A stretch of 21,524 nt of DNA from a virus (Duplodnaviria; Heunggongvirae; Uroviricota; Caudoviricetes). The notes beneath the pieces were generated by a model. It was not told the origin of the DNA. It saw only the letters and a list, made by a program, of their open reading frames with translations, and searched no databases. Both the position numbers and the translations under genes were made by a program. Below, in pieces: positions 1-21,417 of this stretch (within the stretch, counting starts at the first letter, position 1; each line of letters begins with the position of its first letter). The stretch is from positions 1 through 21,524 of IMG/VR virus record IMGVR_UViG_2663762839_000009; one strand, 5' to 3'.

Positions 1-564
1 CACATTAATTATATTGAAGTAATGTTTTAAGGTTTGTAATGCCCCTGGAACAGTACTAATTTAAAAAATTTCTGCTGGGCAATAGCACAATTGTCACCCG
101 ATATCACTCTTACATTTTTTGCACTTTCTGTGACCTCGACAACTGGCATTTCTAATCAGCAATTGTATTGGTATTTGGCGTATTACCCCTGAAACCACTC
201 ATGCGCTGGTCCCTCACTATTCAATGATAATCAGCGAAAACCAACCACACCAGTGTCCACTGCAACCACTTGCGCTCAGAGCGACAAACGATTGGCTAAA
301 GAGTCGGCGACAGTCGAGTATCATCGAACCAATAGTGGTTGTTTCCGTCATAATTTCATCAGGTTGCTATTTTGTCGCCAGCTGCCTTTATCCCCTCACA
401 TTTATAGTGGGATTATTTTGCATCGTTACACGATAAAAGGTAGGATTCTGCGCCGACAGTTATACCCATAAAGAATAATGGTGAATCTTGTCATCGCCAG
501 GATGAATAAACATTGTTCATGGCGACATAAAAGACTTTTTTCATTAAAGCAATCAGGGAGCGCA

Positions 565-2064
565 ATGAGTAAACACAACACCGACACTTCAGAGCAACAC
601 GCTGCGAAACGCCGCTGGCTTAATGCCCACGAAGAGGGATATCACAAAGCAATGGGCAATCGTCAGGTGCAGATGATCGCCATTGGCGGTGCGATTGGTA
701 CTGGTTTGTTTTTAGGCGCGGGAGCCCGACTGCAAATGGCGGGGCCGGCGCTGGCACTGGTCTATTTAATCTGCGGCCTGTTTTCGTTTTTTATTCTGCG
801 CGCGTTGGGTGAGCTGGTATTGCATCGCCCTTCCAGTGGCAGCTTTGTCTCCTATGCCCGTGAGTTTCTGGGTGAGAAAGCCGCTTATGTTGCCGGTTGG
901 ATGTACTTCATCAACTGGGCGATGACCGGGATTGTTGATATTACCGCCGTCGCTCTGTATATGCATTACTGGGGTGCGTTTGGCGGCGTGCCGCAGTGGG
1001 TCTTTGCGCTCGCTGCACTTACCATCGTTGGCACCATGAATATGATCGGCGTGAAATGGTTCGCCGAGATGGAGTTCTGGTTTGCGCTTATTAAAGTGCT
1101 CGCCATTGTGACCTTTTTGGTCGTGGGTACGGTGTTCCTCGGTAGTGGTCAGCCGCTGGATGGCAACACCACTGGCTTTCATTTAATCACCGATAATGGC
1201 GGCTTCTTCCCCCACGGTTTGCTGCCTGCGCTGGTGTTGATTCAGGGCGTAGTGTTTGCTTTTGCCTCCATTGAAATGGTGGGTACAGCTGCCGGAGAAT
1301 GTAAAGATCCGCAGACCATGGTGCCTAAAGCGATTAACAGTGTGATTTGGCGTATTGGCCTGTTTTACGTCGGCTCCGTGGTGTTGCTGGTTATGTTATT
1401 GCCGTGGAGCGCGTATCAGGCGGGGCAAAGTCCGTTCGTGACGTTTTTCTCTAAACTGGGTGTGCCATATATCGGCAGCATTATGAACATTGTGGTGCTG
1501 ACCGCTGCCCTCTCCAGCCTGAATTCAGGTCTGTACTGCACCGGACGTATTCTGCGCTCAATGGCGATGGGCGGTTCCGCACCGAGTTTTATGGCGAAAA
1601 TGAGTCGTCAGCATGTGCCGTATGCCGGGATTCTGGCGACACTGGTTGTGTATGTCGTCGGCGTATTCCTCAACTATCTGGTGCCGTCGCGCGTATTTGA
1701 GATTGTGTTGAACTTCGCGTCGCTGGGAATCATCGCTTCATGGGCGTTTATCATCGTGTGCCAGATGCGCCTGCGTAAAGCGATTAAAGAAGGCAAAGCA
1801 GCGGATGTCAGTTTTAAACTGCCTGGCGCGCCCTTCACTTCCTGGCTGACATTACTGTTTTTACTGAGTGTCCTTGTGCTGATGGCGTTCGATTACCCGA
1901 ACGGGACTTATACTATCGCGGCGCTGCCGATTATCGGTATTCTGCTGGTTATAGGCTGGTTTGGTGTGCGCAAACGCGTTGCTGAAATTCACAGCACTGC
2001 GCCCGTAGTCGAAGTAGATAAAGAAAAACAGGATATTGCATTTAAGCCTGAAACGGCGAGTTAA
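565..2064 (+). CDS. ansP: L-asparagine permease (APC-family amino acid transporter)
   Basis: Long ORF 478..2064; the translation from the internal ATG at 565 (MSKHNTDTSEQHAAKRRWLNAHEEGYHKAMGNRQVQMIAIGGAIGTG...) is recognised as AnsP. AGGGAG Shine-Dalgarno about 8 nt upstream of 565. Multi-pass hydrophobic transporter profile. The upstream 29 codons of the ORF are probably not translated. Confidence 0.85.
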   Translation: MSKHNTDTSEQHAAKRRWLNAHEEGYHKAMGNRQVQMIAIGGAIGTGLFLGAGARLQMAGPALALVYLICGLFSFFILRALGELVLHRPSSGSFVSYAREFLGEKAAYVAGWMYFINWAMTGIVDITAVALYMHYWGAFGGVPQWVFALAALTIVGTMNMIGVKWFAEMEFWFALIKVLAIVTFLVVGTVFLGSGQPLDGNTTGFHLITDNGGFFPHGLLPALVLIQGVVFAFASIEMVGTAAGECKDPQTMVPKAINSVIWRIGLFYVGSVVLLVMLLPWSAYQAGQSPFVTFFSKLGVPYIGSIMNIVVLTAALSSLNSGLYCTGRILRSMAMGGSAPSFMAKMSRQHVPYAGILATLVVYVVGVFLNYLVPSRVFEIVLNFASLGIIASWAFIIVCQMRLRKAIKEGKAADVSFKLPGAPFTSWLTLLFLLSVLVLMAFDYPNGTYTIAALPIIGILLVIGWFGVRKRVAEIHSTAPVVEVDKEKQDIAFKPETAS

Positions 2065-2072
2065 TTGCAAAA

Positions 2073-2095
2073 TTGCCCGGCTACGAGCCGGGCAA
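2073..2095. terminator. Hairpin between convergent ansP and yncE (candidate bidirectional terminator)
   Basis: TTGCCCGGC-tacga-GCCGGGCAA perfect 9-bp stem a few nt after the ansP stop; only short T/A runs flank it. Confidence 0.45.
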
Positions 2096-2127
2096 ATTCA
2101 TATTGCTGACGAGGTGCTCTTTGTTCG

Positions 2128-2161
2128 TGCCGGATGCGGCGCAAGCGCCTTATCTGGCCTA
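2128..2161. repeat. REP (repetitive extragenic palindromic) element
   Basis: GCCGGATGCGGCGCAAGCGCCTTATCTGGCCTAC matches the classic enterobacterial REP consensus (GCCGGATGCGGCG...CGCCTTATCCGGCCTAC), in the intergenic space between convergent genes. Confidence 0.75.
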
Positions 2162-2186
2162 CGAAAGACAAACTCCCCCATGTCTA

Positions 2187-2655
2187 TTACAGCGCTATAC
2201 GAATCACATCGTCTGGCTGGGTAGCTTCCTGCTGTTTAGTGGATTTTTGTTTCACACTGACATACAGCGTTTTACCATCGGCAGAAAGAGCCAGACTGTT
2301 CGGATGAGTCGGCGTATCGAACGTTTTCACCACTTTATAGCTTTTCGCGTCAATCACACTGACTTTACCTGCCTGACGATGCGTCACGTAGGCTTCATTA
2401 CGCGCGGGGTTAAACAGCACAGCCAGTGATTCCGGTGCCGCAACCTTCGCCAGAATATTGCCATTACGGGTATCGACCACTAACACTTCTGCCGCTTTAG
2501 AATCGGTGATAAATGCACGCTGCCTGGCGGTATCAAGGCTGATGTTGATAAAGAAGTGCTCTTTGCCGTCATCCAGCAGCTTTTTACGACTGAGGATTTT
2601 ATTGTCGGCGGTGTCGATGGTAATCAATTCGCCGTCAGCGTTAGTGGTGTAACTA
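2187..2655 (-). pseudogene. yncE: yncE 3' fragment (PQQ-like beta-propeller protein), 5' part replaced by prophage DNA
   Basis: Minus-strand ORF 2187..2687; from about residue 13 onward (YTTNADGELITIDTADNKILSRKKLLDDGKEHFF...DDVIRIAL) it reads as the C-terminal half of YncE. The first ~12 codons are antisense to a tail-fibre-assembly fragment, so the gene is 5'-truncated at about 2650-2665. Confidence 0.7.
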
Positions 2656-2662
2656 CGCAAGA

Positions 2663-2878
2663 AAACTGGAAGCAATGCGCCAGTCATATCTTAATCAGGC
2701 ATATGAAAAAATTAATGACTGGAGAACGGAGCTACAACTGGGCACCATCAGCGATGAAGACAGAGCAGCACTTACCCAATGGATGGCATACATCAGTCAG
2801 GTGAAGAAAATGGAACTACCCGCCATTAAAACAGAAGCTGAATTTAACGCCATTAAATGGCCTGAGCAGCCACAGTAA
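2663..2878 (+). pseudogene. Tail fibre assembly protein (Tfa/U-type), C-terminal fragment, inverted relative to the tail fibre gene
   Basis: Frame is open from the TAG at 2642-2644; the translation ...SDEDRAALTQWMAYISQVKKMELPAIKTEAEFNAIKWPEQPQ has the typical Tfa C-terminus (acidic-Ala-Leu, W/Y-rich, terminal WPxxP). There is no N-terminal portion; the fragment abuts yncE. Confidence 0.5.
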
Positions 2879-2881
2879 TAA

Positions 2882-2901
2882 AGAAGGCCGGAAGGCCTTC
2901 T
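2882..2901. terminator. Hairpin between convergent tail fibre gene and Tfa fragment
   Basis: AGAAGGCC-ggaa-GGCCTTCT perfect 8-bp stem, 3 nt after the Tfa stop and 8 nt after the tail fibre stop; AT-rich flanks. Confidence 0.5.
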
Positions 2902-2909
2902 GAATATCA

Positions 2910-3791
2910 TTATATACTTGCAGCCGTCACCCATGCTCCATTTAACAGATACTGCAACGGCCGGTAATACACGCCGCCGACGTTATCTGCCGTATTCTTA
3001 CCGACATCCTGTACTTTAATTCCGGTAAGAACATTGCCGCCCCCCAGATTCAGATCCCAGCTTTCCCATGTTCCGGGCATATGTGCGGTCACCGACCCCA
3101 GTCTTATGGCGGTTACTGTTCCTGATGAGATAGTGATATCCTGCGTCCCGTCAAAGGGAACACCATTAATTGTGTGGGCATTTGCCAGCCTGTTCGCGGC
3201 AACGGCGGTGCCGTCCGATGGCAGGGCATTCGCCGCCCTGTTTACCGTTTCCCGTAAACCGACGTTATCGATAAAAGCCCCTTTATCCGGAATGTCTGCG
3301 CCGTTCTGCTCCCTGCGCAGGTAACGGTTATCACCTTCGCTTTTGCTGTAAACATCCAGATTATTACGGGCGGTTCCCTTATTCTCCAGGTCGGCGAGAT
3401 TCTGATCCTTCGCCAGGGCATTAACGTCAGCGGGACCAAGACTGTTTTTTGTGGCAAGCGTCCCCAGACCAAGATAACCACGGGCCAGACGCTGGGCCTC
3501 CGCACCGGCATCAGCAATTTCTTTCAGGTTATTTTTCCGGGAAAAGGCATTCGCAGCGATAATGGCTTTAATGGACAGCGTAAGCTGGTTTAACTGCGCC
3601 TTATCCGGCTGAATACTGGCTTCAGCCAGAATATTCAGCAGTTCGGCCTGGAGAATATTCAGCCAGTCCTGACCAATCCAGCTGATACCTTTTTGTCCGT
3701 CACCTTCGGTAAACCAGGTGGTGGTATTACTCTGCGCCGGTGCCAGCGCAGGCATATTCGCCACGCCGGAATTATTATCAACATGAAACAT
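2910..3791 (-). CDS. Phage tail fibre protein
   Basis: 293-aa ORF. C-terminal region contains a phage tail-fibre repeat-like motif ([20 protein letters not shown]). ATG overlaps the stop of the upstream baseplate-gene fragment (TAATG), as for baseplate/tail-fibre coupling in Mu-like phages. Confidence 0.7.
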
Positions 3792-4276
3792 TAAATAGTC
3801 TCCTCTTCATGGCTGTTTGCATAAACGTAAATAAACGTCTGCCATGCAGGCTTATAACGGTTCAGAATACATTCCAGCGCACCGCCTTCATAAATACGCA
3901 GCGGCGTGAGAATATCATCCAGCACATTCATATTCCGGTAGCCGGTTTCACTGTTAATCGTGACAATACTGACCCACTGCGAATCCGGTGAGGGCTGAAT
4001 GTCAATCTGATAACCAAACTCCGCCGCAAACCGGATATAAAATTCACGGTTCAGCGAGGGCTTCATCCGGTATTTATTTCCGGCATAACGCTGTCGCTCC
4101 GTGAGGGTGGCTCCGGCCATATCACACTCGGGAAGCCCGAGATAACGCTCCCAGTCTTCCAGCAGCAGGCGCGACGTGTCAGGGAAACGCTCGGCAAGCA
4201 GCTGTTTACCCGTCCAGGATAAGCATTCACAATCACATCCAGTTTGTCGGGCTGACGTTTCAGACTGTACGGTGCA
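3791..4276 (-). pseudogene. Mu gp48/YmfQ-like baseplate protein, 5'-truncated
   Basis: Frame is open from the stop at 4277-4279 to 3791 and reads ...LLAERFPDTSRLLLEDWERYLGLPECDMAGATLTERQRYAGNKYRMKPSLNREFYIRFAAEFGY..., but there is no ATG/GTG/TTG before the ATG at 4120, which lies downstream of the conserved LEDWERYLGLP motif. Family assignment is from recalled motif similarity, not a search. Confidence 0.5.
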
Positions 4277-5472
4277 TTAACGGCAATCTGCACACTGCCA
4301 TCCTTATTTTCCACGATATACATCAGATTTTTGTGCCGTTTGTCCCACAGCACCGCTTTTGGCTTTGCCAGCATTGCCGGTAAGCGCCCGAAGTCCTCTG
4401 GCATCAGGGCGATGCCGTCATTCTGATGTTTCACACTGTCTGCATGGAGCACATTTTTACCGCTCATCGCCAGCAGGCGGGCCGGTGGCGTTCCCGTCCG
4501 GCTTTCCACTGCCTGCGCAATGCTTTCAGTCATAAAGCCCAGCGTGCGGATATCGTTACCACCTCGCCGGGTCTGCATGATGTTTTTTGCCCAGATGCGG
4601 AACGCCAGCTGCCGCTCCGGGCTGTTGTTCATCTCCTGAACCACCATTTCCCGTAACGCCGGGCTTTTCACCTCGATCAGTTTGCGGATCAGCGCCTGGT
4701 CTGTGCCGAACGCTGCCGAGCCGGGGTTATATGACCAGCCCACATCCGGTGTCATGGTTCTGGTGCCATCTGAATATGTGGTCACCGGCATTTCTCTGAC
4801 TTCTCCGGTCTGTTTATCCACGCCAGCCTCAACATTGCGGGTGGAGAGATGATCCTCACCGGATGAAACGGATAACCCCATTGCATCCAGACGAGCCTGA
4901 GACAATGGCCGCACACGGCAGCGGCAGTTCCAGCCATTAGGTGGGTAGTGTGTTTTCCAGAACGGATCGTCATAGCGGAATACCAGACCGTTAAGGGCGG
5001 AATGCGACGGGCGGGTACGGCTGTCCATGACCGCCACATACTGCCAGAACGGATGCGTGTCCGTGTTGTTCATCATCTGCGTGTAACGCCCGGCATTGTA
5101 AGCCACCCGGGTGTTCACGTTGTAAATCAGCGCCAGACGACGGGGACTGCCCAGTTGCACTTCTTCCGCGTTACCGTCGCTGTCCACCACAATCTGCTTT
5201 CCCCACCATCCCAGCTTTTGCAGGCGTGGCGTCAGCGTGCGGATAAATGCTTTCTGTGAAATTCCCTCATCAATGGCCCGCTGCACTTCGGCCTGTAACG
5301 TGGTCACCACATCCAGGCGTGCCGCTTTTGCTGCCGTGAATGAGCGGGCATGAACATCCGCGGCTGTTTCGAACCAGTTCCAGCTGATATGCGCCCCTTT
5401 GACACGGAAGTATGCTACCGCCTCTTTTGAGGGAAGCGTGGCGGCATAACCTAAATCAATCCCCTGTGTCAT
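4063..5472 (-). CDS. Mu F (gp30)-like head morphogenesis protein; last ~50 codons read out of frame through the baseplate-gene fragment
   Basis: 469-aa ORF. Contains the Mu F / SPP1 gp7-type motif (...VAVMDSRTRPSHSALNGLVFRYDDPFWKTHYPPNGWNCRCRVRPL...). After ...KLDVIVNAYPG the translation becomes low-complexity (RVNSCLPSVSLTRRACCWKTGSVISGFP...) while the other frame encodes the baseplate protein. Confidence 0.8.
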   Translation of the reverse strand: MTQGIDLGYAATLPSKEAVAYFRVKGAHISWNWFETAADVHARSFTAAKAARLDVVTTLQAEVQRAIDEGISQKAFIRTLTPRLQKLGWWGKQIVVDSDGNAEEVQLGSPRRLALIYNVNTRVAYNAGRYTQMMNNTDTHPFWQYVAVMDSRTRPSHSALNGLVFRYDDPFWKTHYPPNGWNCRCRVRPLSQARLDAMGLSVSSGEDHLSTRNVEAGVDKQTGEVREMPVTTYSDGTRTMTPDVGWSYNPGSAAFGTDQALIRKLIEVKSPALREMVVQEMNNSPERQLAFRIWAKNIMQTRRGGNDIRTLGFMTESIAQAVESRTGTPPARLLAMSGKNVLHADSVKHQNDGIALMPEDFGRLPAMLAKPKAVLWDKRHKNLMYIVENKDGSVQIAVNAPYSLKRQPDKLDVIVNAYPGRVNSCLPSVSLTRRACCWKTGSVISGFPSVIWPEPPSRSDSVMPEINTG

Positions 5473-7045
5473 CCAGCATCCCCTTCATTTCCGCAGCAAA
5501 CATGGCATCACTGAGCAGCGTCATCAGGCGGGAATCATCCATTTCACGATAAAGGGCAGGCAGGTCTGCCAGCGCATCCGCCAGCCCCCGCGTTCTGATG
5601 GCATCAATGACCGGCTCCAGTACCGGGTCGATGGCCTCCTGTAAGCGGCGGGCAGGCACCGCGTCCCCCATATCATCCAGTTCATCACGCGGCGTGCTTT
5701 TCGCTTCCGGCAGTCTGGCTGACAGCGCCGTCTGCTCTGTTTTTTCCTGTTTTTCCGGTGGTGTTTCCCTGTCGGTCTGAGCCGGTTCATTGCCACTCTG
5801 ACGGACACGGAATATGGCTTCACCGGGCGTGGGCTGCGGAATACCGGTCTGCTCACGTATCCAGGGATCAGAAATATCCATCCCCGTACTGAGCTGCATC
5901 ACCGCACTGGTGATTTTGGTGATATCACCTGGTTCTTTTGTCTGGAAGCAGATACGTGGCAGACGGCGGATATCAATAGTGTGCGTGGTGTTCAGGGCGT
6001 ACAGCGGATACACCAGATCGCGGTTCAGGGTTGCAGCCAGCTGTCGTAAATCAGAATCCCTGATTTCCCGGCGCACCTCGTTATGTACCTCACCCAGTGA
6101 GCGCGCGCCTTTGTCTCCGGCTTCCGTGGTCAGCGTGCCGCCGAGTATTGCTTTGGAGATGGAACGCTCCCCCCACGAAATCATGGTTTCAAACGGATCG
6201 GCCTGACCGTTCGCTGCCGCCTGAAACTCCAGCGACATCCCGGCCGGGATGATCCCGCCTGTACGTCGCCCGATATCCATCACCGCCCGCATCAGGGCAC
6301 TTTTCTGCTCCGGTGTTGCCCCGGACGGGTATTTCCCGACCTTCATCGGCAGGCCGTACACCTCCAGAAATTCCGCCAGATCGCGCACGGAATAGTTTTT
6401 GAAAATGAACGGCCAGATAAGCGTCCGGACAAGCCCGGTTGCACCACCGTAACCGGTGCGTGAACGCGACTGATGCACTATCCAGCCAAAGGGCTGAAAC
6501 GCCACCCCGGAATGGCTGCCGTCACGCAGCCGCAGTTCGCTCAAATCATCCGGGTTAAGGCAGAAATGCCCGCTGTCACGCCAGCGGATGGCGCGGATGA
6601 TGTGCATTTTACCGAGCATCCCGTGCTCAATTTCCATGCAGGAATAGCCCTTCAGGATGGCATCCGTGGCGTCAAACAGCATGGCATCAAACCAGTCTGC
6701 GGAATGCAGATATTCGTCGAGCATTTCCGCGTCCTTTTTCTCATTCGCGCTGGCGTTCGGTGGCGGCTCAATACTCCATGGCCCCCCCTGAATGGCAAGA
6801 CGTCGCTTGCCCAGCTCCGCAAAAAGGTGGGTGTCCTTTTCTTCAATATCAGCGGCCAGATCGGACTGGGCAATCAGATCGCCACGTTCAGCCCCGCGAA
6901 GGCACTGCGCCGCCCGGTTCGGGGTGATACCCGAAGCCGGATGTTCAATATAACGGCTGGCAATCTGCGGAATATCCAGCGCGGCACTCTGCATCTCCGG
7001 GTCAAAGGAGAAAGGTTTTCCGTCAGTATCAATGATGCGTCCCAC
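5456..7045 (-). CDS. Portal protein (Mu gp29-like)
   Basis: 529-aa ORF directly downstream of and overlapping the large terminase gene by 1 nt, followed by the F-like gene: the conserved terminase-portal-F order of Mu-like phages. Confidence 0.8.
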   Translation of the reverse strand: MGRIIDTDGKPFSFDPEMQSAALDIPQIASRYIEHPASGITPNRAAQCLRGAERGDLIAQSDLAADIEEKDTHLFAELGKRRLAIQGGPWSIEPPPNASANEKKDAEMLDEYLHSADWFDAMLFDATDAILKGYSCMEIEHGMLGKMHIIRAIRWRDSGHFCLNPDDLSELRLRDGSHSGVAFQPFGWIVHQSRSRTGYGGATGLVRTLIWPFIFKNYSVRDLAEFLEVYGLPMKVGKYPSGATPEQKSALMRAVMDIGRRTGGIIPAGMSLEFQAAANGQADPFETMISWGERSISKAILGGTLTTEAGDKGARSLGEVHNEVRREIRDSDLRQLAATLNRDLVYPLYALNTTHTIDIRRLPRICFQTKEPGDITKITSAVMQLSTGMDISDPWIREQTGIPQPTPGEAIFRVRQSGNEPAQTDRETPPEKQEKTEQTALSARLPEAKSTPRDELDDMGDAVPARRLQEAIDPVLEPVIDAIRTRGLADALADLPALYREMDDSRLMTLLSDAMFAAEMKGMLDDTGD

Positions 7046-8709
7046 TACCAGCCCCCCCGATCAAATTCATGATATGCCTCATCGTCATCACGATAACCGC
7101 CCTCCATTGCCCGCGACCGCTCCGGTAGCGCCTGACAGGCTGATTCATCCAGGATGAAGCCCTCCATGTATGACGCCCGGTTTGCCATACAGAGCGCCAC
7201 GGCAAAATCACCATGGCGGCGGGCGTTCGCAGCCGTTGCGTTCTGGTCCTTCGTGCGCCCCTTGTCGATTTGCGGGATACCATTCACTACCTTCACATGG
7301 CGCAAATCATCAAGCGTGGTCTGATGGCGGGCGACGAGGATATTCTGATCTTCAAACTCGGCTTTCAGTTTTGGCATCCACTCGCCGTACCACTTCGGCG
7401 ACAACATCACGCAGTCGATGATGTCCGGGCCAAAGGCCAGCAGTGCGGCCTCTGCCAGATAGCCGCCGTTACCGGTGGCGTCGAACGCCGCACCGACCAG
7501 CGCCGGAACGCGGGTCAGGATGTACATCATCACCTGTTCCTGCTGGGCATACGGCAGGTTGCGCAGCTCCACGCGAAACACCTCGCGCTTTGCCAGGGAT
7601 TCGGTGATTTCCAGCAGCACAAAGCAGGACAGGTCACCGGTGCGGGCAAAGTCTTCCCCGAAGCTGAAGCGGGAACGGGGATTTAATTTCTCTAAAAGCG
7701 GTTTTAAATGTTCTTCACACCAGGTTAAAACTTCCGATTCACGCAGCCATGCGGCACGGCTGATGAAGTTGTCCGGGGCTTCAAACGTCAGAATCGGGAT
7801 GTCGCGGATCATCGCCATTTCAATAAGCGCGTGGGGGATATAGGCACCGCCGGATTTTTTCGGGATACAGCCGTATTCCTCGTCGGCATCCTCACGGGTC
7901 GGGGCATTTTTGTAGAGATCATCACGCCATTTCTGCTCGCTTTCCGGTGACCATTCCTGATCGGTGACGTAACAGATACGACGGTACAGCCCGTCCGCAA
8001 TGGCATCATCCAGGGTTATGCGGTGGACGCTGTAATCCTTGCGCCCCTCGCGGGCTTCCTGAATGTACTGATTAAACAGATTATCGACGCCGTTATGCGT
8101 GGAGATAATACGCACGCGCGCGCCCCACATAGTGAGCGCCATTGCCGCCTTGAGAAGTTCATCCAGCGACTCGTGGAACGCGGCTTCATCAATCACCACA
8201 TCCCCCTGAAGGCCGCGCAGGTTTGACGGACGGGAAGACAATGCCTGAATTTTGAATCCACTGTACGGAAAGCGGATCATGTAGGTCAAAATTTCTTCTT
8301 TTTTATCCCGTTCCCAGAATGTCTGCTCATACACATCAGCATCTGCCAGCTGGTTAAAGGCACGGGAGAACAGCGCGCAGGCAGAAATATATTCCAGCGC
8401 CATCTCCTGCTTTGATCCCACATAAAACACATTGCGGCCACCACGACGCTTCGGTTTTGCAGCAGTAATGACGTTACGCCCGGCTTCCGCCCAGGTAAGA
8501 CCGGTGCGGCGGGATTTTTCCGCAATGCAGACCTGACTTTCATCCTCAAACCAGCGGGCCTGATAATCCAGAAACACCGGCATATCACCGGGCAAATCAA
8601 GTCTGTCCGGCACATCCACGCCCAGCAGGGCTTTTTCACCGGACAGATCAATTTTGCGGGGAGGCGTCATTTGTATCAGTGAAGGAGACGTTTCTTTGGC
8701 TTTGTTCAT
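7045..8709 (-). CDS. Terminase large subunit (Mu gp28-like)
   Basis: 554-aa ORF with an ATPase-like N-terminal part and nuclease-like C-terminal part; sits between the gp27-like gene and the portal gene. Confidence 0.8.
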   Translation of the reverse strand: MNKAKETSPSLIQMTPPRKIDLSGEKALLGVDVPDRLDLPGDMPVFLDYQARWFEDESQVCIAEKSRRTGLTWAEAGRNVITAAKPKRRGGRNVFYVGSKQEMALEYISACALFSRAFNQLADADVYEQTFWERDKKEEILTYMIRFPYSGFKIQALSSRPSNLRGLQGDVVIDEAAFHESLDELLKAAMALTMWGARVRIISTHNGVDNLFNQYIQEAREGRKDYSVHRITLDDAIADGLYRRICYVTDQEWSPESEQKWRDDLYKNAPTREDADEEYGCIPKKSGGAYIPHALIEMAMIRDIPILTFEAPDNFISRAAWLRESEVLTWCEEHLKPLLEKLNPRSRFSFGEDFARTGDLSCFVLLEITESLAKREVFRVELRNLPYAQQEQVMMYILTRVPALVGAAFDATGNGGYLAEAALLAFGPDIIDCVMLSPKWYGEWMPKLKAEFEDQNILVARHQTTLDDLRHVKVVNGIPQIDKGRTKDQNATAANARRHGDFAVALCMANRASYMEGFILDESACQALPERSRAMEGGYRDDDEAYHEFDRGGW

Positions 8710-8957
8710 CAGGCTTTACCTGTCAGAATGCTTTTGATTCGGAACTCAAGCTCTTCAGTCATCACGTCCACGCCACTCAACTCATCAGTGACAGCCTCTG
8801 CCAGCAGCGAATGCAGTTGTTCCAGGGATATTTCCCCGGCAATGCTGAGTTCAGTCAACTCACGACACGCTTTTATGGTTTCAGGAGGTAACTGTGTTGC
8901 AAGACTGAATGCCTTCTGATGAGCACTACTCATCAGTGAGCGGTTATCTGTTACCAC
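8709..8957 (-). CDS. Small protein (82 aa) whose C-terminus copies the C-terminal tail of the adjacent gp27-like protein
   Basis: GTG start at 8957 preceded by AGGAGGTG. C-terminus ...LLAEAVTDELSGVDVMTEELEFRIKSILTGKA parallels ...EEMANAVTDELRGVDGMSEQIEFRIRQMLLGKA of ORF 8968..9549. Stop overlaps the terminase start. Confidence 0.5.
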   Translation of the reverse strand: MVTDNRSLMSSAHQKAFSLATQLPPETIKACRELTELSIAGEISLEQLHSLLAEAVTDELSGVDVMTEELEFRIKSILTGKA

Positions 8958-8967
8958 GATTCACCTC

Positions 8968-9549
8968 CTACGCCTTACCAAGCAGCATCTGCCTGATACG
9001 GAATTCTATCTGCTCGCTCATGCCATCCACGCCGCGCAACTCGTCGGTGACGGCGTTCGCCATCTCTTCAGCAAATGCGGCCCGGATTTCTTTTTCACGC
9101 TTAATGCTGCGCTCGGCGGCACTTTCCGCACGCTGTGCCGACAGGAGGATGTCCTTAATAAGGCGCATATCCACATCGCTGTCGCTGTTCAGGGATTCGG
9201 TGGCAGCACGCAGACGGCGGTACATCAGGGCGCGGGACATTTCCAGAATCAGTGCCGTGGTTTCACCGGTCGGCTTGTCCCCCAGTTCGGCCATCATGGC
9301 TTTTGTCTGCTCGCGTAAATCACGCAGGTTACGGGCAATCAGCTCATTACGGGAGGCCTCCCGGCTGATGGCCGCCGGTGAAAGCTGCTGCTCTTCCGGC
9401 AGACCCGCCTCACGGATCAGGCGGTTGATTTCCTCGCGGATCTGGACCTGCGTCAGGCGTTTTTCACGCAGCATTTCCAGCAGCGGCTTACGGATGCTGT
9501 CGGGGAGCAAATCCACCTTGCGTACACGGCCACGCGTTGGCTTATCCAT
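8968..9549 (-). CDS. Mu gp27-like protein (putative small terminase/packaging subunit)
   Basis: 193-aa ORF, basic N-terminus (MDKPTRGRVRKVDLLPDSIRKPLLEMLREKRL...) with a helical, charged body; position immediately upstream of the large terminase. Confidence 0.7.
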   Translation of the reverse strand: MDKPTRGRVRKVDLLPDSIRKPLLEMLREKRLTQVQIREEINRLIREAGLPEEQQLSPAAISREASRNELIARNLRDLREQTKAMMAELGDKPTGETTALILEMSRALMYRRLRAATESLNSDSDVDMRLIKDILLSAQRAESAAERSIKREKEIRAAFAEEMANAVTDELRGVDGMSEQIEFRIRQMLLGKA

Positions 9550-9551
9550 CG

Positions 9552-9842
9552 TTACCCCCTTGCGCGTGGTTTCTTCACACCCGGAACAGTGGCACGACCT
9601 TCCGCCACATCCTGACCCCGGCCGGTCAGTTCAGCGATGAAATAACCGTTAACAAGCGTGCGCTTACGCACCAGTCCCTGCTCGGCAAGCCAGGCAATGT
9701 GGGTGTGAACGGTGTCGCGGGACACACGGTGGCCGTAATCATCCAGGCAGTCCTGAAGCACGGATTCGCCCAGTTCGCCGTTGTAATCCGCCAGCGACCG
9801 CAGAATGACAAGACGCTGATCTTCAGTAATGAAATCACTCAT
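9552..9842 (-). CDS. Mu gp26-like small protein (winged-helix-like)
   Basis: 96-aa ORF tightly coupled between the membrane protein and the gp27-like gene. Confidence 0.55.
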   Translation of the reverse strand: MSDFITEDQRLVILRSLADYNGELGESVLQDCLDDYGHRVSRDTVHTHIAWLAEQGLVRKRTLVNGYFIAELTGRGQDVAEGRATVPGVKKPRARG

Positions 9843-10147
9843 TGTGTTTTTTTCCTTACAGCCTGCTCCAGCAGCAGTTCGTTCTGGTGGGAGACGGATT
9901 TCAGGGTGGCATTGGTGGCCTTAAGCTCACCGCGCAGGGTGGTGATTTCGATATTGAGTCTGTTCACCTCCTGCTGCGTGGGCAGGCCGGAAATCCGGCT
10001 CTCCACCCGCTCAACCCGGTCGGAGAGTTTTTCAAAGGCCTCGCGGGGGACAAAGGTTTTGCGCATCAGCGCCATAAAGATCCCCCCGGCCGTGGCCGTG
10101 GCCGACAGGATCGGCACGACATAATCTTTAACGATACTGACCCACAT
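9839..10147 (-). CDS. Small membrane/coiled-coil protein (Mu gp25-like; possible lysis accessory)
   Basis: N-terminal hydrophobic segment (VVPILSATATAGGIFMALM) followed by a heptad-like charged region; located in the lysis/packaging junction. Confidence 0.55.
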   Translation of the reverse strand: MWVSIVKDYVVPILSATATAGGIFMALMRKTFVPREAFEKLSDRVERVESRISGLPTQQEVNRLNIEITTLRGELKATNATLKSVSHQNELLLEQAVRKKTQ

Positions 10148-10355
10148 GACCGGCCTCCATGATGTTCTGGCAGTTCACACAACGGATGGCATCCGGCACG
10201 GCAACCAGACGGGCGGCCGGAATGTCACCCCCGCAGTCCGCGCATGCACGCCTGCCCGGTGTCTCCGCCACCCGGCGCTTACGTGTCAGCCGGTCACAAA
10301 GGGCGCGTTCTGTTGCCCGCTCCACGACTGCCTGAGCACAATCTGAATCATCCAT
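10128..10355 (-). CDS. TraR/DksA-family C4 zinc-finger protein
   Basis: CADCGGDIP...(17 aa)...CVNCQ four-cysteine motif. Start taken at the internal ATG at 10355, which has an AAGGA Shine-Dalgarno; the ORF track starts at 10421. Confidence 0.65.
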   Translation of the reverse strand: MDDSDCAQAVVERATERALCDRLTRKRRVAETPGRRACADCGGDIPAARLVAVPDAIRCVNCQNIMEAGHVGQYR

Positions 10356-10365
10356 ACCTTTTTCC

Positions 10366-10737
10366 TTACTTCGTCTTTCCTGCCGGAACAGCAGTCGTTC
10401 CGGCCATATCAGTAAATTCATGCTGTCGCTGTGCCTCCAGACGGCGGATGCTGGCCTTGTCCACGTTGCAGTTTTTAATCACCGCCAGCAGTTGCAGGTT
10501 GTAAGTGACCGATGCGCCAAATGTGAACGGCTGCGGCACAGGAGGGACCAGACAGTCAGCCAGCCATTCAGCGGGGATCGGCACCGGCTTCACCGGCACG
10601 TATTTCACAGACGGCCCGCCGCACCCGGTCAGCCACATCATCAGGCACAGGAACAGAGGCCGCAGGCACCGTTGCCAGCGACCGGCGGACAATGCTCTGC
10701 TGTTCCTCGCTGTGCTGCATGTTCTGCTGTTTTTCAT
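10366..10737 (-). CDS. Outer-membrane spanin candidate (Rz1-like lipoprotein), overlapping the i-spanin in another frame
   Basis: Lipobox LTGC (..LFLCLMMWLTGCGGPS..) followed by a proline-rich segment (PVKPVPIPAEW...PPVPQP). Start codon uncertain; the ORF track frame is 10366..10848. Confidence 0.45.
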   Translation of the reverse strand: MKNSRTCSTARNSRALSAGRWQRCLRPLFLCLMMWLTGCGGPSVKYVPVKPVPIPAEWLADCLVPPVPQPFTFGASVTYNLQLLAVIKNCNVDKASIRRLEAQRQHEFTDMAGTTAVPAGKTK

Positions 10738-11068
10738 TCGTGGCCGCCTTGCTGATTTGTGAAATGAGTTGCAGGGTGCGTTGCTGGTTTGCCAGCACCA
10801 GACGGGCTTCGTCCCGTTCACGCACAAGCACATGATTATTGTCCTCAAGGCGCTGCGTCTTCTGGTGCATTCCCCATACCACGGCAGCCAGCACGCTCAT
10901 CACCCCCAGCGCCGCCATACAGCCTCCGGCAATCAGGGCCGGTAAGGGATTGTTCACCGCAGCCACAGCACACCCCGCAGCAGCACAACGGCACACAGCA
11001 GCGCAATCATGAGCGGTCGCCAGAAGCGGTTCAGACTTTCGGCAAATCGTAACGACATAACCATTCAT
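10568..11068 (-). CDS. Inner-membrane spanin candidate (Rz-like)
   Basis: Hydrophobic segment (MAALGVMSVLAAVVWGM) followed by a charged coiled-coil-like region (HQKTQRLEDNNHVLVRERDEARLVLANQQRTLQ...); immediately downstream of the lysozyme gene. Start uncertain (ATG at 11068 or 10918). Confidence 0.55.
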   Translation of the reverse strand: MNGYVVTICRKSEPLLATAHDCAAVCRCAAAGCAVAAVNNPLPALIAGGCMAALGVMSVLAAVVWGMHQKTQRLEDNNHVLVRERDEARLVLANQQRTLQLISQISKAATNEKQQNMQHSEEQQSIVRRSLATVPAASVPVPDDVADRVRRAVCEIRAGEAGADPR

Positions 11069-11531: not shown

Positions 11532-11532
11532 T

Positions 11533-11570
11533 GTTACGCTGTCTCATGGTGTTCTCTGAGTCAGCGTAAC
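11533..11570 (-). promoter_or_regulatory. 9-bp perfect inverted repeat immediately upstream of the lysozyme start
   Basis: GTTACGCTG (11533-11541) and CAGCGTAAC (11562-11570) separated by 20 bp, in the 71-bp gap between the Mor/C-family gene and the lysozyme gene. Confidence 0.4.
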
Positions 11571-11602
11571 CGTGGGAAAAAGTGGGCAGGATTTGCGGAA
11601 TA

Positions 11603-12025: not shown

Positions 12026-12065
12026 ACCCGCCTCCGGTCATCATTACACAGGGCAAGTTTAAAAT

Positions 12066-12090
12066 AAAAATCCCGCGCTGTGGCGGGGTT
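12066..12090 (-). terminator. Candidate intrinsic terminator at the end of the early operon
   Basis: On the minus strand: CCCGC-cacagc-GCGGG stem followed by ATTTTTATTTT, directly after the gemA stop. Confidence 0.45.
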
Positions 12091-12095
12091 TGGGG

Positions 12096-12608: not shown

Positions 12609-12672
12609 TATCGTGTCTCCGTAACAACAGGCGGCATGGCAACGCCGCCCGGATAAAACTAAAGGTATCGAT

Positions 12673-13353: not shown

Positions 13354-13368
13354 TATTCACCTGCCTGC

Positions 13369-14593: not shown

Positions 14594-14596
14594 GCA

Positions 14597-16626: not shown

Positions 16627-16630
16627 GGAA

Positions 16631-18688: not shown

Positions 18689-20446
18689 TCAGGCCAGCGG
18701 ATCACTTTCTTTTAATTTCGCTTCGAGCAGTTGCAATCCCCGCTGGAAATTACGCTCGTATTCTTCATCAGGTTCATCGTCAGCGACCGGTTGCTGAACG
18801 GTCACCGTATTACCCACAGGGCGGTATATGTTTTCCAGCCAGGGCTCCTGCGGCTTGTGCTCCAGCACGTTGACAACCTCATCCTCGACATCACGGATTT
18901 TTTCCTCTGCGCGTTTACGCATGCCTTTAAGGCGCTGCTGCTGTTTGTAGTATTCCGCGCTGACAGGGAAGGCTTCGCGTTTATTGCCGTCCCATACCGC
19001 CTCGCAAATCACGCTGCCATCCGGGCGGCGCACGGTAATTCGTTCGGCATCATGAATGTCATAGCTGATAAGTACCTTACGGCCATGCTCGTCACGCAGC
19101 TCGGGCGCGTAGTAAATATTATTCAGCCAGCGTATTTCACAGCGTCTTACAGGGCGCTCCACCATCGGCCGGAACATATCCCGCAGTTCAACATCGGACA
19201 GCCATTCAATTTCCGTGTCCTCTTCCGCCAGGCGTTTTTTTCTGAACTCCGCCGGGCTGTAATGTTTACCGTTCGGCTTCATGGGTAATTCATCGTGCGG
19301 CCGGTTGTTGTACCACTCAACACCGTCACGAATGGCATCAATCAGTTCAGACCAGGACGGTAAATCACGCATCGCTGACTGCTGCCGGGCGTTCAGCCGT
19401 TTGCCCTGTTGCAGGGCACTGAATGCCGAGCGTAAATCGCGGTTGGTTTTACGTAACGTCTCGCGATCTGCTCCTTTCCCGAAATAGGTGCGGTATTTAC
19501 GGGCTATGCGCATCGGTAATGTGCGGTTAAGCCGTTCGATAATGCCCCGTCCCTGCGGATTACCGGCAATCCCTGTCGGGTGATTAATCCCCAGTCGTGG
19601 CAGTACCCGGCCTTTTTGTTTCACCACTTCCGGCAGTTTCTTCATTGCGCGGCGAATGGTGTCATAAGAGGGCATGATATCGAGCATATAAGGCTCATCA
19701 GCGTGCCGGTGCTGCCATTCAGCAACAAAATCCTCGTAAGCCTCGGTCATTGGTCGGCCGTTTGACTGGCGATACTGCGCCAGAAATTCGGGCAGCCAGT
19801 TAATATCTTCGGCTTTTATTTCCTGGCGTTTACCCGGTGCCAGTAAAAGCAGGCGTTCAGCGGCGTTCTGTGCCTTGTTAAAGGCCGCAATCCAGCGTTT
19901 CAGCGTGATTTCACTCAACGCGCGGCTGTTTCCCTTTTTGGCGTTCGCCGTCTCAACCATTGCCACAATGCGCTCGTCCAGTTGTGATCGTGCCAGGCTG
20001 TTAACGAGGAACCGGATAGCCTTAGCGCAACTAAAGCCGGGTTGTTGCGCGATTTTCAGCACCTCGCTGACGATCGCTATTCGTGCCTCTGCCACTTTAC
20101 GTTGGTTTTCAGTCAGGGCATTGAGGCGTTCGACCATCAGTTGGGGTGATCCGCGATATGCCTCCACCGCATCAACCACGGCAGGTGAGCGTCTGGCCTT
20201 TGTCACCACCGGAGCCGGTGATTCATCGGCTTTTTGCGTCATCAGTTGCAGGGCGTAGCGTTCACGTAATGCCTGCTGCGTCACTTCAGGTAAACAGTCG
20301 ATGCTGTATTCAGTTGCTTTAGAGCCTGAGCGACGACGGGAACAACAGCTTTTCCCTTGTACGTAACGTTGTAATGCCTGGCGAATACCTTTTGTTGTAG
20401 CAGGCATTCCGGGCGCGCCAATCAGTTCTTTTGCAATGACATACAT
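18689..20446 (-). CDS. MuA-like transposase
   Basis: 585-aa ORF following ner. Contains integrase-core-like motifs (...GNPQGRGIIERLNRTL... and ...WYNNRPHDELPMKP...) and a C-terminal region resembling the MuA C-terminal domain (...RPDGSVICEAVWDG...IYRPVGNTV...DDEPDEEYERN...). Confidence 0.8.
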   Translation of the reverse strand: MYVIAKELIGAPGMPATTKGIRQALQRYVQGKSCCSRRRSGSKATEYSIDCLPEVTQQALRERYALQLMTQKADESPAPVVTKARRSPAVVDAVEAYRGSPQLMVERLNALTENQRKVAEARIAIVSEVLKIAQQPGFSCAKAIRFLVNSLARSQLDERIVAMVETANAKKGNSRALSEITLKRWIAAFNKAQNAAERLLLLAPGKRQEIKAEDINWLPEFLAQYRQSNGRPMTEAYEDFVAEWQHRHADEPYMLDIMPSYDTIRRAMKKLPEVVKQKGRVLPRLGINHPTGIAGNPQGRGIIERLNRTLPMRIARKYRTYFGKGADRETLRKTNRDLRSAFSALQQGKRLNARQQSAMRDLPSWSELIDAIRDGVEWYNNRPHDELPMKPNGKHYSPAEFRKKRLAEEDTEIEWLSDVELRDMFRPMVERPVRRCEIRWLNNIYYAPELRDEHGRKVLISYDIHDAERITVRRPDGSVICEAVWDGNKREAFPVSAEYYKQQQRLKGMRKRAEEKIRDVEDEVVNVLEHKPQEPWLENIYRPVGNTVTVQQPVADDEPDEEYERNFQRGLQLLEAKLKESDPLA

Positions 20447-20447: not shown

Positions 20448-20696
20448 TCATGACGCCTTTCTCATATAGCTCTTAACCTGGTATCGACTGGGCCAGATTT
20501 CTTCAGGTGATACCCCAAGAGCATCAGCAATTATTTGCTGATACGGTCGGCAAGGAGTACGTAATACGCTTTTCAGCGAATCCCTGCTGTAACCAGCCTT
20601 TAAAGATAAAGAGCGCAGTGATAAGCCAGCCATGTGTAAGCGCGCCTTGATGATTTCAGGCGGCCAATCGTGATCTGAAACTTCTCTTCTACTCAT
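20448..20696 (-). CDS. ner: Ner-like DNA-binding regulator
   Basis: 82-aa ORF (...DWPPEIIKARLHMAGLSLRSLSLKAGYSRDSLKSVLRTPCRPYQQIIADALGVSPEEIWPSRYQ...) recognised as Mu Ner / E. coli Nlp family; AGGAAG Shine-Dalgarno; first gene of the early operon. Confidence 0.85.
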   Translation of the reverse strand: MSRREVSDHDWPPEIIKARLHMAGLSLRSLSLKAGYSRDSLKSVLRTPCRPYQQIIADALGVSPEEIWPSRYQVKSYMRKAS

Positions 20697-20886
20697 ACTT
20701 CCTCTATTCTAAAAAGTTACCCGCGCGGATATTCGTGCGGATATCTGTACGGGTAAATAATGCATCACCAAAAATACCAAACCAAGGTATTTTTGGTATT
20801 TTGGCTAATTTTTGCTTTTATCCTTATTTTTCAATTGGATAAATAGAAAGAAACCTTTCCTTAGAAAAGCACCAAGAGGTATCTTT
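20697..20886. promoter_or_regulatory. Divergent early/repressor promoter-operator region
   Basis: 190-bp AT-rich intergenic region between divergent ner and repressor genes. Contains a perfect 12-bp inverted repeat ACCAAAAATACC-n7-GGTATTTTTGGT (20767-20797), direct repeats GCGGATAT at 20725-20732 and 20737-20744, and an enclosing TTACCCG/CGGGTAA inverted repeat (20717-20723 and 20750-20756). Confidence 0.6.
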
Positions 20887-21417
20887 ATGTCGCAGGGAAA
20901 AGAACCTGTTATTGAACGTATTGGAATGCTTACAAAGCGCTACCCTTCAAGAAGTGCAGCTGCCAGAGCGTGGGGAATCAATATCAACACATTAAACAGC
21001 TATTTCAAGGGAGGACAAACACAACCAGCCCCCAGAGAAAGTATCCTTATACGAATTTCTGAAAGTGAAGGCGTTAGTCTTGAGTGGCTTAAAGAGGGCA
21101 AGGGTGAATTACCAAACGATATTGGTATTTATGGTAATTTTGGTTGTTCTGGTGATAAGGGAGATCAGCTTACACAGATGCTTTCATTCCTTACGAAAGA
21201 CGAACGAGAACAGTTAACCAATCTCCTTGCTCGCAAAGGTGTAGAGACGGTTCTGACACTGCTGAATAAAGAAAACCAAGATTTATTACAACTAGAAGGC
21301 AGGAAGCGCCTGGCTGCGTTGATGATTGTAGATATGCCAGACGATTGCGTCAGAGAGATTTTGGAAAAAACCGAGACAAGTAGGCAATCAAATCCGGTAG
21401 AATCTAAAGCGGGTTAG
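20887..21417 (+). CDS. Putative prophage repressor with CI-type (phage 186 CI-like) HTH
   Basis: Start ATG at 20887 with AAGAGG Shine-Dalgarno (the ORF track starts at 20812). N-terminus ...SRSAAARAWGININTLNSYFKGGQTQPAPRESILIRISESEGVSLEWLKEGKG resembles the CI-repressor HTH domain; divergent from ner as the Mu c repressor is. Confidence 0.6.
   Translation: MSQGKEPVIERIGMLTKRYPSRSAAARAWGININTLNSYFKGGQTQPAPRESILIRISESEGVSLEWLKEGKGELPNDIGIYGNFGCSGDKGDQLTQMLSFLTKDEREQLTNLLARKGVETVLTLLNKENQDLLQLEGRKRLAALMIVDMPDDCVREILEKTETSRQSNPVESKAG

What the first reader, a model, noticed from the sequence alone, without database searches (positions are those of the whole stretch)
2640..2690. Prophage-host junction: inverted tail-fibre-assembly fragment fused to the 3' half of yncE
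On the plus strand a Tfa C-terminal fragment (frame open from 2645, typical WPEQPQ end at 2878) runs antisense into the minus-strand yncE remnant. The yncE ORF acquires about 12 foreign N-terminal codons (MTGALLPVFLRS) before the YncE sequence begins. The invertase, the rest of the invertible tail-fibre segment and the phage right end are all missing, and so is the 5' half of yncE. This implies a deletion spanning the original right end rather than a clean transposition insertion. It also inactivates yncE.
Basis: partly seen in the sequence, partly recalled or inferred. Interest (0 to 1): 0.45.

Follow-up and report, generated by a model that had tools for sequence, protein, structure and literature searches.

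The report
Deletion scar joining prophage to yncE

Summary
Bases 1-2652 are E. coli chromosome: ansP plus the 3' 466 bp of yncE, one mismatch against strain 14EC033. From 2650 on, the sequence is 100% identical to a Mu-like prophage that is intact in strain HH35. The arms overlap by 3 bp (TAA, 2650-2652).

The breakpoint lies inside the tail-fibre-assembly gene, keeping residues 100-173 of 173. That is 5,860 bp from the phage right terminus. The rest of the invertible segment, the invertase, com/mom and the right end are gone. So are yncE codons 1-199.

The best explanation is a short-microhomology illegitimate deletion, not a transposition junction.

- A 13,830-bp internal deletion at 4220/4221 fuses the Mu F gene to ymfQ/gp48 and removes nearly all head and tail genes.
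- A 333-bp in-frame deletion at 19604/19605 removes part of the catalytic core of the MuA-type transposase.

All three chimeric proteins occur only in this contig and in an independent assembly of run ERR738831.

The window is a whole 21,524-bp contig that stops 139 bp short of the phage left end. The original insertion site and the extent of host loss are therefore unknown. This is routine prophage decay and of low interest.

The parts
565..2064 (+). ansP (L-asparagine permease), intact, 499 aa. This is the host flank.
   Evidence: Annotated ansP under the match in 14EC033. The exact protein is listed in 205 blocks of the collection. In all 7 places shown it sits next to an intact 353-aa yncE.
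2187..2652 (-). yncE remnant: the 3' 466 bp, encoding YncE residues 200-353 of 353. The promoter, signal peptide and N-terminal blades are missing.
   Evidence: Part of the 2,652-bp host arm that matches 14EC033 with one mismatch. Mapping of the remnant onto full-length YncE. Weak Pfam YNCE hit to profile positions 177-303 of 339.
2187..2687 (-). Chimeric ORF of 166 aa: 12 codons (MTGALLPVFLRS) read from the antisense strand of tfa, then the YncE C-terminal 154 aa. Probably a pseudogene.
   Evidence: ORF list. The exact protein was found only in this contig and in Logan contig ERR738831_837. The scan of 2050-3000 reported no sigma-70-like site upstream of the ATG at 2687; its only minus-strand site (2623-2596) lies inside the ORF.
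2650..2652 (.). Junction 1: TAA shared by both parents. The host arm ends at 2652 and the phage arm starts at 2650.
   Evidence: Three-way alignment and exact-extent computation.
2653..2878 (+). 3' fragment of the tail-fibre-assembly gene (Tfa residues 100-173 of 173, with its stop codon). It is antisense to the phage late genes, as in intact relatives.
   Evidence: Pfam PF02413 at E=1.5e-14, C-terminal half of the profile only. 100% identical to HH35 L002 8989-9214.
2882..2901 (.). G+C-rich hairpin between the convergent tfa and tail-fibre genes. The consensus scan called it a terminator on the minus strand only.
   Evidence: Terminator-like site on the minus strand in the scan. Palindrome I5. 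Consensus match only; function not tested.
2910..3791 (-). Tail-fibre gene (293 aa), intact, frozen in one orientation of the invertible segment.
   Evidence: 100% identical to HH35 CDS L002 9246-10127. No Pfam hit. Its position matches Mu S.
3136..3279 (.). The one surviving copy of the roughly 145-bp inverted repeat that bounds the invertible tail-fibre segment. Its partner copy is deleted.
   Evidence: Window 3136-3279 matches HH35 L002 8406-8264 in reverse at 86.9%. That partner lies next to the serine recombinase gene in HH35.
3791..4221 (-). 3' remnant of ymfQ / Mu gp48-like baseplate gene (called ORF 3791-4120, 109 aa).
   Evidence: Pfam Phage_Mu_Gp48 profile positions 66-147 of 150. 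100% identical to the HH35 YmfQ gene up to L002 10557.
4220..4221 (.). Junction 2: a 13,830-bp internal deletion with 2-bp TA overlap. It joins ymfQ to codon 417 of the Mu F-like gene. It removes baseplate, tape measure, tube, sheath, major head, protease and gpG genes.
   Evidence: Alignment to both HH35 arms. Gene content of the lost interval from the HH35 annotation. The junction is spanned by Logan contig ERR738831_154.
4063..5472 (-). Truncated Mu F-like head-morphogenesis gene. About 417 of 443 codons are fused to 52 out-of-frame ymfQ codons.
   Evidence: Pfam Phage_Mu_F at E=1e-29. Relatives are 443 aa. The 469-aa chimera is seen only in this isolate.
5456..8709 (-). Mu-type portal gene (5456-7045) and a 554-aa ORF (7045-8709) that is probably the large terminase. 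Both are intact.
   Evidence: Pfam Portal_Mu on the portal. The 554-aa product has no Pfam hit and is annotated 'hypothetical protein' in HH35. Its position fits, and part of it matches genes annotated as large terminase in Pseudomonas phages at 77% DNA identity. The whole stretch is 97-99.9% identical to relatives.
18689..20446 (-). MuA-type transposase gene with a 333-bp in-frame deletion (junction 3 at 19604/19605, TA overlap). The product is 585 aa instead of 696 and lacks residues 281-390.
   Evidence: Alignments. The deleted stretch includes the SDNGSG segment, which aligns to the retroviral-integrase catalytic core. The exact protein, WP_045177156.1, is found only in this isolate.
20448..21417 (.). 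Ner-like gene (20448-20696, minus strand) and repressor gene (20887-21417, plus strand). This is the left-end immunity region and is intact.
   Evidence: Pfam HTH_35 on the 82-aa product. The exact repressor is listed in 4,448 blocks of the collection, next to 696-aa transposases in intact relatives.

Best explanation
A Mu-like transposable prophage, nearly identical to prophages in Shigella sonnei 53G and many E. coli, once sat on the promoter side of yncE with its right end facing yncE. A single RecA-independent illegitimate deletion then joined yncE codon 199/200 to codon 99/100 of the phage tfa gene. The mechanism would be replication slippage or end-joining at the 3-bp TAA microhomology.

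That event removed:
- the 5' 596 bp of yncE;
- an unknown length of host DNA;
- the last 5,860 bp of the prophage: the tfa 5' part, the alternative tail-fibre tip, the serine invertase, DUF6645, com/mom and the right transposition end.

Two further short-microhomology deletions hit the same prophage: 13,830 bp of head and tail genes, and 333 bp of the transposase core. The result is an immobile 19-kb remnant that cannot make particles. It still carries the repressor and ner, the early genes, the lysis genes, and the portal and probable terminase genes.

Shown: both parental arms, the breakpoints, the microhomologies, what an intact relative carries beyond the breakpoint, and that the three junctions are unique to this isolate.

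Inferred: that the event was a deletion rather than an inversion, the RecA-independent mechanism, and that selection against a lethal inducible prophage favoured these lesions.
For: - Host arm 1-2652 is 99.96% identical to 14EC033, where yncE is intact and followed by pqqU, mcbR and curA.
- Phage arm 2650-4221 is 100% identical to the HH35 prophage.
- Exact overlap is TAA.
- In HH35 the order is right end, mom, com, DUF6645, invertase, S'v, tfa, tail fibre and so on to the left end, with a 5-bp duplication TACGT. The window's orientation is exactly what a simple deletion from host into the right end would leave.
- No IS, phage terminus or recombination site lies at the junction. The inverted repeat of the invertible segment is about 480 bp away, at 3136-3279.
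- The junction is spanned by two assemblies.
- The same prophage carries two more deletions, each with a TA overlap.
- All three chimeric proteins are found only in this isolate, among about 15 billion proteins.
- Other strains carry independently decayed remnants of this prophage family (L006 and L011).
- All 7 places shown for the same AnsP allele keep an intact yncE, so the lesion is recent and private.
Against: - The left end and its host flank are not in the window. The NCBI contig stops 139 bp short and the Logan contig stops at 21417. The original insertion site, the size of the host deletion, and even the absence of the yncE 5' half from the genome are untested.
- Microhomologies of 2-3 bp are only weakly diagnostic. 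An overlap of 3 bp or more is expected by chance about 1 time in 64.
- The selective explanation is conjecture.
Confidence: 0.82

Rival explanations
1. Inversion or other balanced rearrangement. One break fell in yncE and one in tfa of a prophage lying in the opposite orientation. The yncE 5' half and the phage right-end block would then survive elsewhere as the reciprocal junction.
For: The window alone cannot exclude it, because the contig ends before any informative flank. Both assemblies break at 21417-21524. That suggests the left-end sequence is repeated in this genome and that more Mu-like DNA is present elsewhere.
Against: The two proteins predicted from an exactly reciprocal junction are a 199-aa YncE N-terminal fragment and a 123-aa Tfa N-terminal chimera. 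Neither is in the protein collection, which does hold this isolate's other chimeras. This is weak evidence, because illegitimate inversions are rarely exactly reciprocal. A simple deletion needs fewer events, and the same prophage shows two unambiguous deletions of the same style.
Confidence: 0.12
2. Assembly or library chimera. The host-phage join does not exist in the chromosome.
For: The window is a short-read draft contig. I infer that both assemblies derive from the same run.
Against: A 3-bp overlap is far below any k-mer size, so reads must span the join. Two different assemblers give the same sequence across it: CDRI01000202.1 and Logan ERR738831_837, which covers window 2135-3973. The Logan break at 3944-3973 is a 30-nt overlap of the kind expected at a short repeated k-1-mer, and it is not at the junction.
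Confidence: 0.03
3. Clean Mu-type transposition of a shortened phage into yncE, or an invertase-mediated (Gin/Pin-type) recombination with a pseudo-site in yncE.
For: The phage family does transpose: HH35 shows a 5-bp duplication. It also carries a serine invertase next to the segment.
Against: The junction lies inside the tfa coding sequence, 5,860 bp from the right terminus, and no terminal transposase-binding repeats are adjacent. The inverted repeats that bound the invertible segment are at window 3136-3279 and at the deleted partner, about 480-580 bp from the breakpoint.
Confidence: 0.02

Closest known systems
Right-end deletion derivatives of bacteriophage Mu prophages. These are classical defective Mu lysogens in which a deletion enters the prophage from adjacent host DNA. 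I cite this from general knowledge of Mu genetics, not from a paper read here.
   Same: A deletion starts in flanking host DNA, ends inside the late or G-segment region, and removes the right attachment end. The prophage can then no longer transpose, replicate or be packaged.
   Different: This is a natural isolate and a Mu-like phage only distantly related to Mu, D108 and SfMu at DNA level: about 70% identity over about 600 bp of the portal/F genes. Two additional independent deletions are present.
Intact Mu-like prophages of E. coli and Shigella: HH35 NZ_CP136993.2 at 577,125-615,758, S. sonnei 53G HE616528.1, and the 'inserted Bacteriophage Mu-like phage' regions in the Stx phage records LC727881 and LC727895.
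   Same: 97-100% nucleotide identity over every retained segment, with the same gene order and the same orientation of the tfa/tail-fibre invertible segment.
   Different: Those relatives have both ends, a 696-aa transposase, a 443-aa F protein and the full head and tail module. The window lacks 5.86 kb, 13.83 kb and 0.33 kb of that.
Cryptic or defective prophages of E. coli such as e14, Rac and Qin, that is, prophage decay by deletion. Cited from general knowledge.
   Same: Loss of ends and structural genes leaves an immobile remnant that retains regulatory and some accessory genes.
   Different: Those remnants are old and shared by many strains. This one is private to a single isolate and still about 100% identical to active-looking relatives, so it is very recent.
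Other natural yncE-negative E. coli: 6 of 1,556 strains in PMC5120174.
   Same: Loss of a gene otherwise present in 99.6% of E. coli and proposed as a broad vaccine antigen.
   Different: I did not examine the mechanism of loss in those strains. Here it is a prophage-associated deletion that leaves the 3' 44% of the gene.

Membership tests
Mu-like transposable prophage | MuA-type DDE transposase plus MuB ATPase next to a Ner/repressor immunity region | tested here: met
   Pfam HTH_Tnp_Mu_1 and Mu-transpos_C on the 585-aa product. Phage-MuB_C on the 310-aa product. HTH_35 (Ner-like) product and divergent repressor. The transposase is internally deleted.
Mu-like transposable prophage | Mu-type late module (Mor, GemA, Gp27, portal_Mu, Mu F, Gp48) | tested here: met
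   Pfam hits on the called genes. The module is interrupted by the 13.83-kb deletion.
Mu-like transposable prophage | Defined termini flanked by a 5-bp target-site duplication | not testable with these tools
   The right terminus is deleted and the left terminus is 139 bp beyond the contig end. In the intact relative HH35 a 5-bp TACGT duplication flanks the element inside a diguanylate-cyclase gene.
Tail-fibre assembly protein (Caudo_TAP, PF02413) | Significant match to the family profile | tested here: met
   54.7 bits against a cut-off of 22.1, E=1.5e-14, profile positions 64-131 of 131.
Tail-fibre assembly protein (Caudo_TAP, PF02413) | Complete coding sequence with its own start | tested here: not met
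   Only residues 100-173 of the 173-aa protein of HH35 remain. The frame opens on host sequence at 2645.
YncE (7-bladed periplasmic beta-propeller) | Full-length 353-aa protein with an N-terminal Sec signal peptide | tested here: not met
   Only residues 200-353 remain, preceded by 12 foreign residues. The DNA matches annotated yncE of 14EC033.
Gin/Pin-type invertible tail-fibre segment | Two inverted repeats flanking alternative tail-fibre tips, with an adjacent serine invertase | tested here: not met
   One repeat copy survives (3136-3279). The partner copy, the alternative tip and the recombinase gene are present in HH35 but absent from the window.
Clean transposition junction (phage end abutting target DNA) | The phage terminus lies at the host-phage boundary | tested here: not met
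   The boundary is inside tfa, 5,860 bp from the right terminus as defined in HH35.
Short-microhomology illegitimate deletion | Both arms collinear with their parents, a few shared bases at the join, and no mobile-element or site-specific sequence at the join | tested here: met
   TAA overlap with exact parental identity on each side. No repeat family or IS at 2600-2700.
Short-microhomology illegitimate deletion | The intervening DNA is absent from the genome, which distinguishes deletion from inversion | not testable with these tools
   Only this contig and two Logan contigs of the isolate could be reached. The exact reciprocal products are not on record, which is weak support only.

The most novel reading that the evidence does not exclude
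The remnant might not be mere debris. It could be a selected, domesticated immunity or defence module.

It keeps:
- the repressor and Ner;
- MuB, Kil and Gam;
- an in-frame MuA that retains its DNA-binding N-terminus and its C-terminal domain but lacks the catalytic core.

Such a protein could act as a dominant-negative inhibitor of incoming or co-resident Mu-like phages. Three private deletions in a prophage still about 100% identical to active relatives would then reflect rapid selection for a harmless but protective remnant.

A co-resident Mu-like element is hinted at because both assemblies break at the left-end sequence.
Probability: 0.06. Interest if true: 0.4.

Novelty: already known. 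Interest (0 to 1): 0.12.

Why it matters
The main value is for annotation. The 166-aa 'YncE-like' ORF, the 469-aa 'head morphogenesis' ORF and the 585-aa transposase (WP_045177156.1) are deletion chimeras, not genes. The region should be labelled a defective Mu-like prophage remnant.

It also gives a datable example of how fast a transposable prophage can be disarmed. Three private short-microhomology deletions remove the right end, the virion genes and the transposase core while the rest stays about 100% identical to intact relatives.

There is a minor applied point. yncE is present in 99.6% of E. coli and has been proposed as a broad vaccine antigen (PMC5120174). This isolate is a natural yncE-negative variant.

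Nothing here challenges current understanding.

Tried and rejected
(1) Recovering the phage left end and its host flank. The window is the whole NCBI contig. The Logan contig with the transposase (ERR738831_154, 17,474 bp) covers only window 3944-21417. A repressor look-up returned only other strains.

(2) A lead that the original insertion was next to yncJ. Locus L005 (CP061272.1) has the same phage's left end beside yncJ-rlhA-tehAB, about 20 kb from yncE and in the matching orientation. I rejected it as coincidence. No complete E. coli genome shares that site. L005's host flank is 99.8% identical to the many E. coli genomes at the top of the hit list, whereas the window's host arm is only about 93% identical to most E. 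coli and has few close matches.

(3) Looking for an ancestral intact prophage near yncE in the closest host relative, 14EC033. There is none within 50 kb.

(4) Exact look-up of predicted reciprocal-inversion products. They are not on record. This is only weakly informative.

(5) Literature search for the accessions ERR738831, GCA_000946855 and CDRI01. No hits.

(6) The idea that the truncated YncE might be the toxic fragment described in the literature. Rejected: the lytic construct is the 5' 408 bp (PMC5476278), whereas this remnant is the 3' part.

(7) Invertase-mediated or transposase-mediated origin of the junction. Rejected on breakpoint position.

Full report
**What the window is.** The 21,524-base window is an entire draft contig, CDRI01000202.1 of assembly GCA_000946855.1. 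One of its proteins carries a RefSeq name assigned to Escherichia coli (WP_045177156.1).

Bases 1-2652 are chromosome. They hold an intact ansP (565-2064, + strand) and the 3' end of yncE on the minus strand. They are 99.96% identical (one mismatch) to E. coli 14EC033. In that strain yncE is a complete 353-codon gene followed by pqqU, mcbR and curA.

Everything from 2650 to the end is a Mu-like transposable prophage. Its called genes hit Pfam families for the Mu transposase, MuB, Kil, Gam, GemA, Mor, Gp27, Mu portal, Mu F and Gp48. Intact relatives exist in many strains. HH35 (NZ_CP136993.2) has a copy of about 38.6 kb inside a diguanylate-cyclase gene, flanked by a 5-bp TACGT duplication. Shigella sonnei 53G is 99.96% identical over window 11220-19608. 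In the phage collection the nearest entries are 'Mu-like phage' inserts in two Stx-phage records, at about 93% identity. Mu, D108 and SfMu match only about 600 bp at about 70%.

**Checking the observation.** Every descriptive element is correct.
- The minus-strand ORF 2187-2687 starts MTGALLPVFLRS and continues with YncE residues 200-353.
- The plus-strand frame opens at 2645 after a TAG and ends ...KWPEQPQ-stop at 2878.
- That frame scores 54.7 bits on Caudo_TAP, covering only the C-terminal half of the profile.
- It equals residues 100-173 of the 173-aa Tfa of HH35.

A three-way alignment puts the end of host identity at 2652 and the start of phage identity at 2650. The arms therefore share TAA.

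The antisense orientation of tfa is not itself a rearrangement. In HH35 and more than 20 other relatives the 293-aa tail-fibre gene is followed by a convergent tfa, then an alternative tail-fibre tip, then a serine recombinase. An inverted repeat of about 145 bp bounds the segment (window 3136-3279 against HH35 L002 8264-8406).

**What is missing.** In HH35 the DNA beyond the breakpoint runs 5,860 bp to the right terminus. It carries:
- the tfa 5' part;
- the alternative tail-fibre tip;
- the invertase;
- DUF6645, DUF1378 and DUF826 genes;
- com and a mom-like gene.

None of these is in the window. On the host side, yncE codons 1-199, its signal peptide and its promoter region are replaced by phage DNA.

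**Is it real?** A 3-bp overlap cannot produce a k-mer mis-join. An independent Logan assembly of run ERR738831 has a 1,839-bp contig covering window 2135-3973, straight across the junction. I infer, but did not show, that this run is the read set behind the NCBI assembly. The chimeric 166-aa protein is found in no other contig among about 153 billion gene positions and about 15 billion proteins. All 7 places shown for the identical AnsP allele have an intact yncE. The lesion is therefore private to this isolate and recent.

The phage arm is not continuous.

At 4220/4221 (TA overlap) identity to HH35 jumps from L002 10557 to 24386. This is a 13,830-bp deletion that fuses the ymfQ/gp48 remnant to codon 417 of the Mu F-like gene. 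It removes the baseplate, tape measure, tube, sheath, head-completion, major head, protease and gpG genes.

At 19604/19605 (TA overlap) there is a 333-bp in-frame deletion in the transposase gene. It shortens the protein from 696 to 585 residues and removes residues 281-390. That stretch includes the SDNGSG segment, which aligns to the catalytic core of retroviral integrases. At least one catalytic acidic residue is therefore gone.

Both junctions are spanned by a second Logan contig (ERR738831_154, 17,474 bp, window 3944-21417), and both chimeric proteins are unique to this isolate.

The prophage has thus lost three things: its right end, its virion genes and its transposase core. The retained DNA is 97-100% identical to intact relatives.

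**Mechanism.** The best-supported account is a simple illegitimate deletion at short microhomology. It runs from inside yncE, across an unknown stretch of host DNA and the prophage right end, into tfa.
- The window's orientation (ansP, yncE 3' part, then tfa, tail fibre and on toward the left end) is what such a deletion would leave if the phage sat on the promoter side of yncE with its right end proximal.
- It is not a transposition junction, because the breakpoint is 5.86 kb from the terminus.
- It is not an invertase product, because the breakpoint is about 480-580 bp from either repeat.
- Other lineages carry independently decayed remnants of the same prophage family (L006 and L011), so deletional decay is common here.

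Selection against an inducible, host-killing transposable phage is a plausible reason for three inactivating lesions. That part is inference.

**Limits.** The contig stops 139 bp before the phage left terminus, and the Logan contig stops even earlier. As a result the following are not established:
- the original insertion site;
- the length of host DNA lost;
- whether the yncE 5' half is truly absent from the genome.

An inversion with breaks in yncE and tfa would give the same local picture. The two proteins predicted from an exactly reciprocal junction are not on record, but that is weak evidence. The closest host relative, 14EC033, has no prophage within 50 kb, so it cannot serve as the ancestral state. 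A locus with the same phage next to yncJ (L005) looked promising but no complete E. coli genome shares that site and its host flank does not look like this isolate's.

**Context and verdict.** yncE encodes a Fur-regulated, Sec-exported seven-bladed propeller of unknown function. A yncE mutant takes up PQQ normally (bioRxiv 10.1101/2022.06.07.495086). The gene is present in 99.6% of 1,556 E. coli genomes and has been proposed as a vaccine antigen (PMC5120174). The lytic 'truncated YncE' of the literature is the 5' 408 bp (PMC5476278), not the 3' part kept here.

It is an ordinary instance of prophage decay. Its value is for correct annotation of three chimeric ORFs and as a neat, recent example of multi-hit prophage inactivation. 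Interest is low.

Noticed in passing
window 4220-4221: Second deletion junction (TA overlap). 13,830 bp of head and tail genes are missing relative to HH35. It fuses the ymfQ/gp48 remnant to codon 417 of the Mu F-like gene and creates a 469-aa chimeric ORF (4063-5472).
   Followed up: yes
window 19604-19605 (gene 18689-20446, minus strand): 333-bp in-frame deletion in the MuA-type transposase: 585 aa against 696 aa in all relatives. It removes residues 281-390, including the DNG segment of the DDE core. The N-terminal DNA-binding part and the C-terminal part are retained, so the protein could in principle be dominant-negative.
   Followed up: partly
window 21417-21524 and 3944-3973: Both assemblies break near the phage left end: Logan at 21417, NCBI at 21524, which is 139 bp short of the terminus. 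Logan also breaks at a 30-nt overlap inside the ymfQ remnant. This suggests that the left-end sequence, and a short ymfQ stretch, occur elsewhere in this genome, possibly in a second Mu-like or related prophage.
   Followed up: partly
window 1-1000 and 2001-2250: The host arm is only about 93% identical to most E. coli; 6 of 5,419 matching records reach 99% or more. Divergence is concentrated upstream of ansP (80%), in the ansP 5' half (about 93%) and in the ansP-yncE intergenic REP region (80%). The ansP 3' half and yncE are 97-99% identical. This looks like a mosaic, recombinant allele next to an rhs/T6SS island.
   Followed up: partly
L006 and L011, same left-flank host genes: Two other strains carry the same prophage family at one insertion site, reduced by large internal deletions. 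In L011 little is called between the tail-fibre gene and ner. These are independent examples of deletional decay in this family.
   Followed up: no
L005 10532-11000 (CP061272.1): The same phage's left end abuts yncJ-rlhA-tehAB. That is about 20 kb from yncE on the chromosome map and in the orientation a simple deletion model would need. I judged it coincidental: no complete E. coli genome shares the site, and its host flank is 99.8% identical to many E. coli genomes, unlike the window's rare host allele.
   Followed up: yes
window 12628-13729: A mosaic segment with no match in the HH35 prophage but near-identical in the S. sonnei 53G-type prophages (L007, L014). It includes a plus-strand 136-aa ORF (12673-13083) of unknown function that is antisense to the early operon.
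   Followed up: no
L002 24226-24305 (HH35 prophage, between gpG and the F gene): RefSeq annotates a 'tRNA-OTHER' feature inside the intact relative's late region. It lies within the interval deleted from the window.
   Followed up: no
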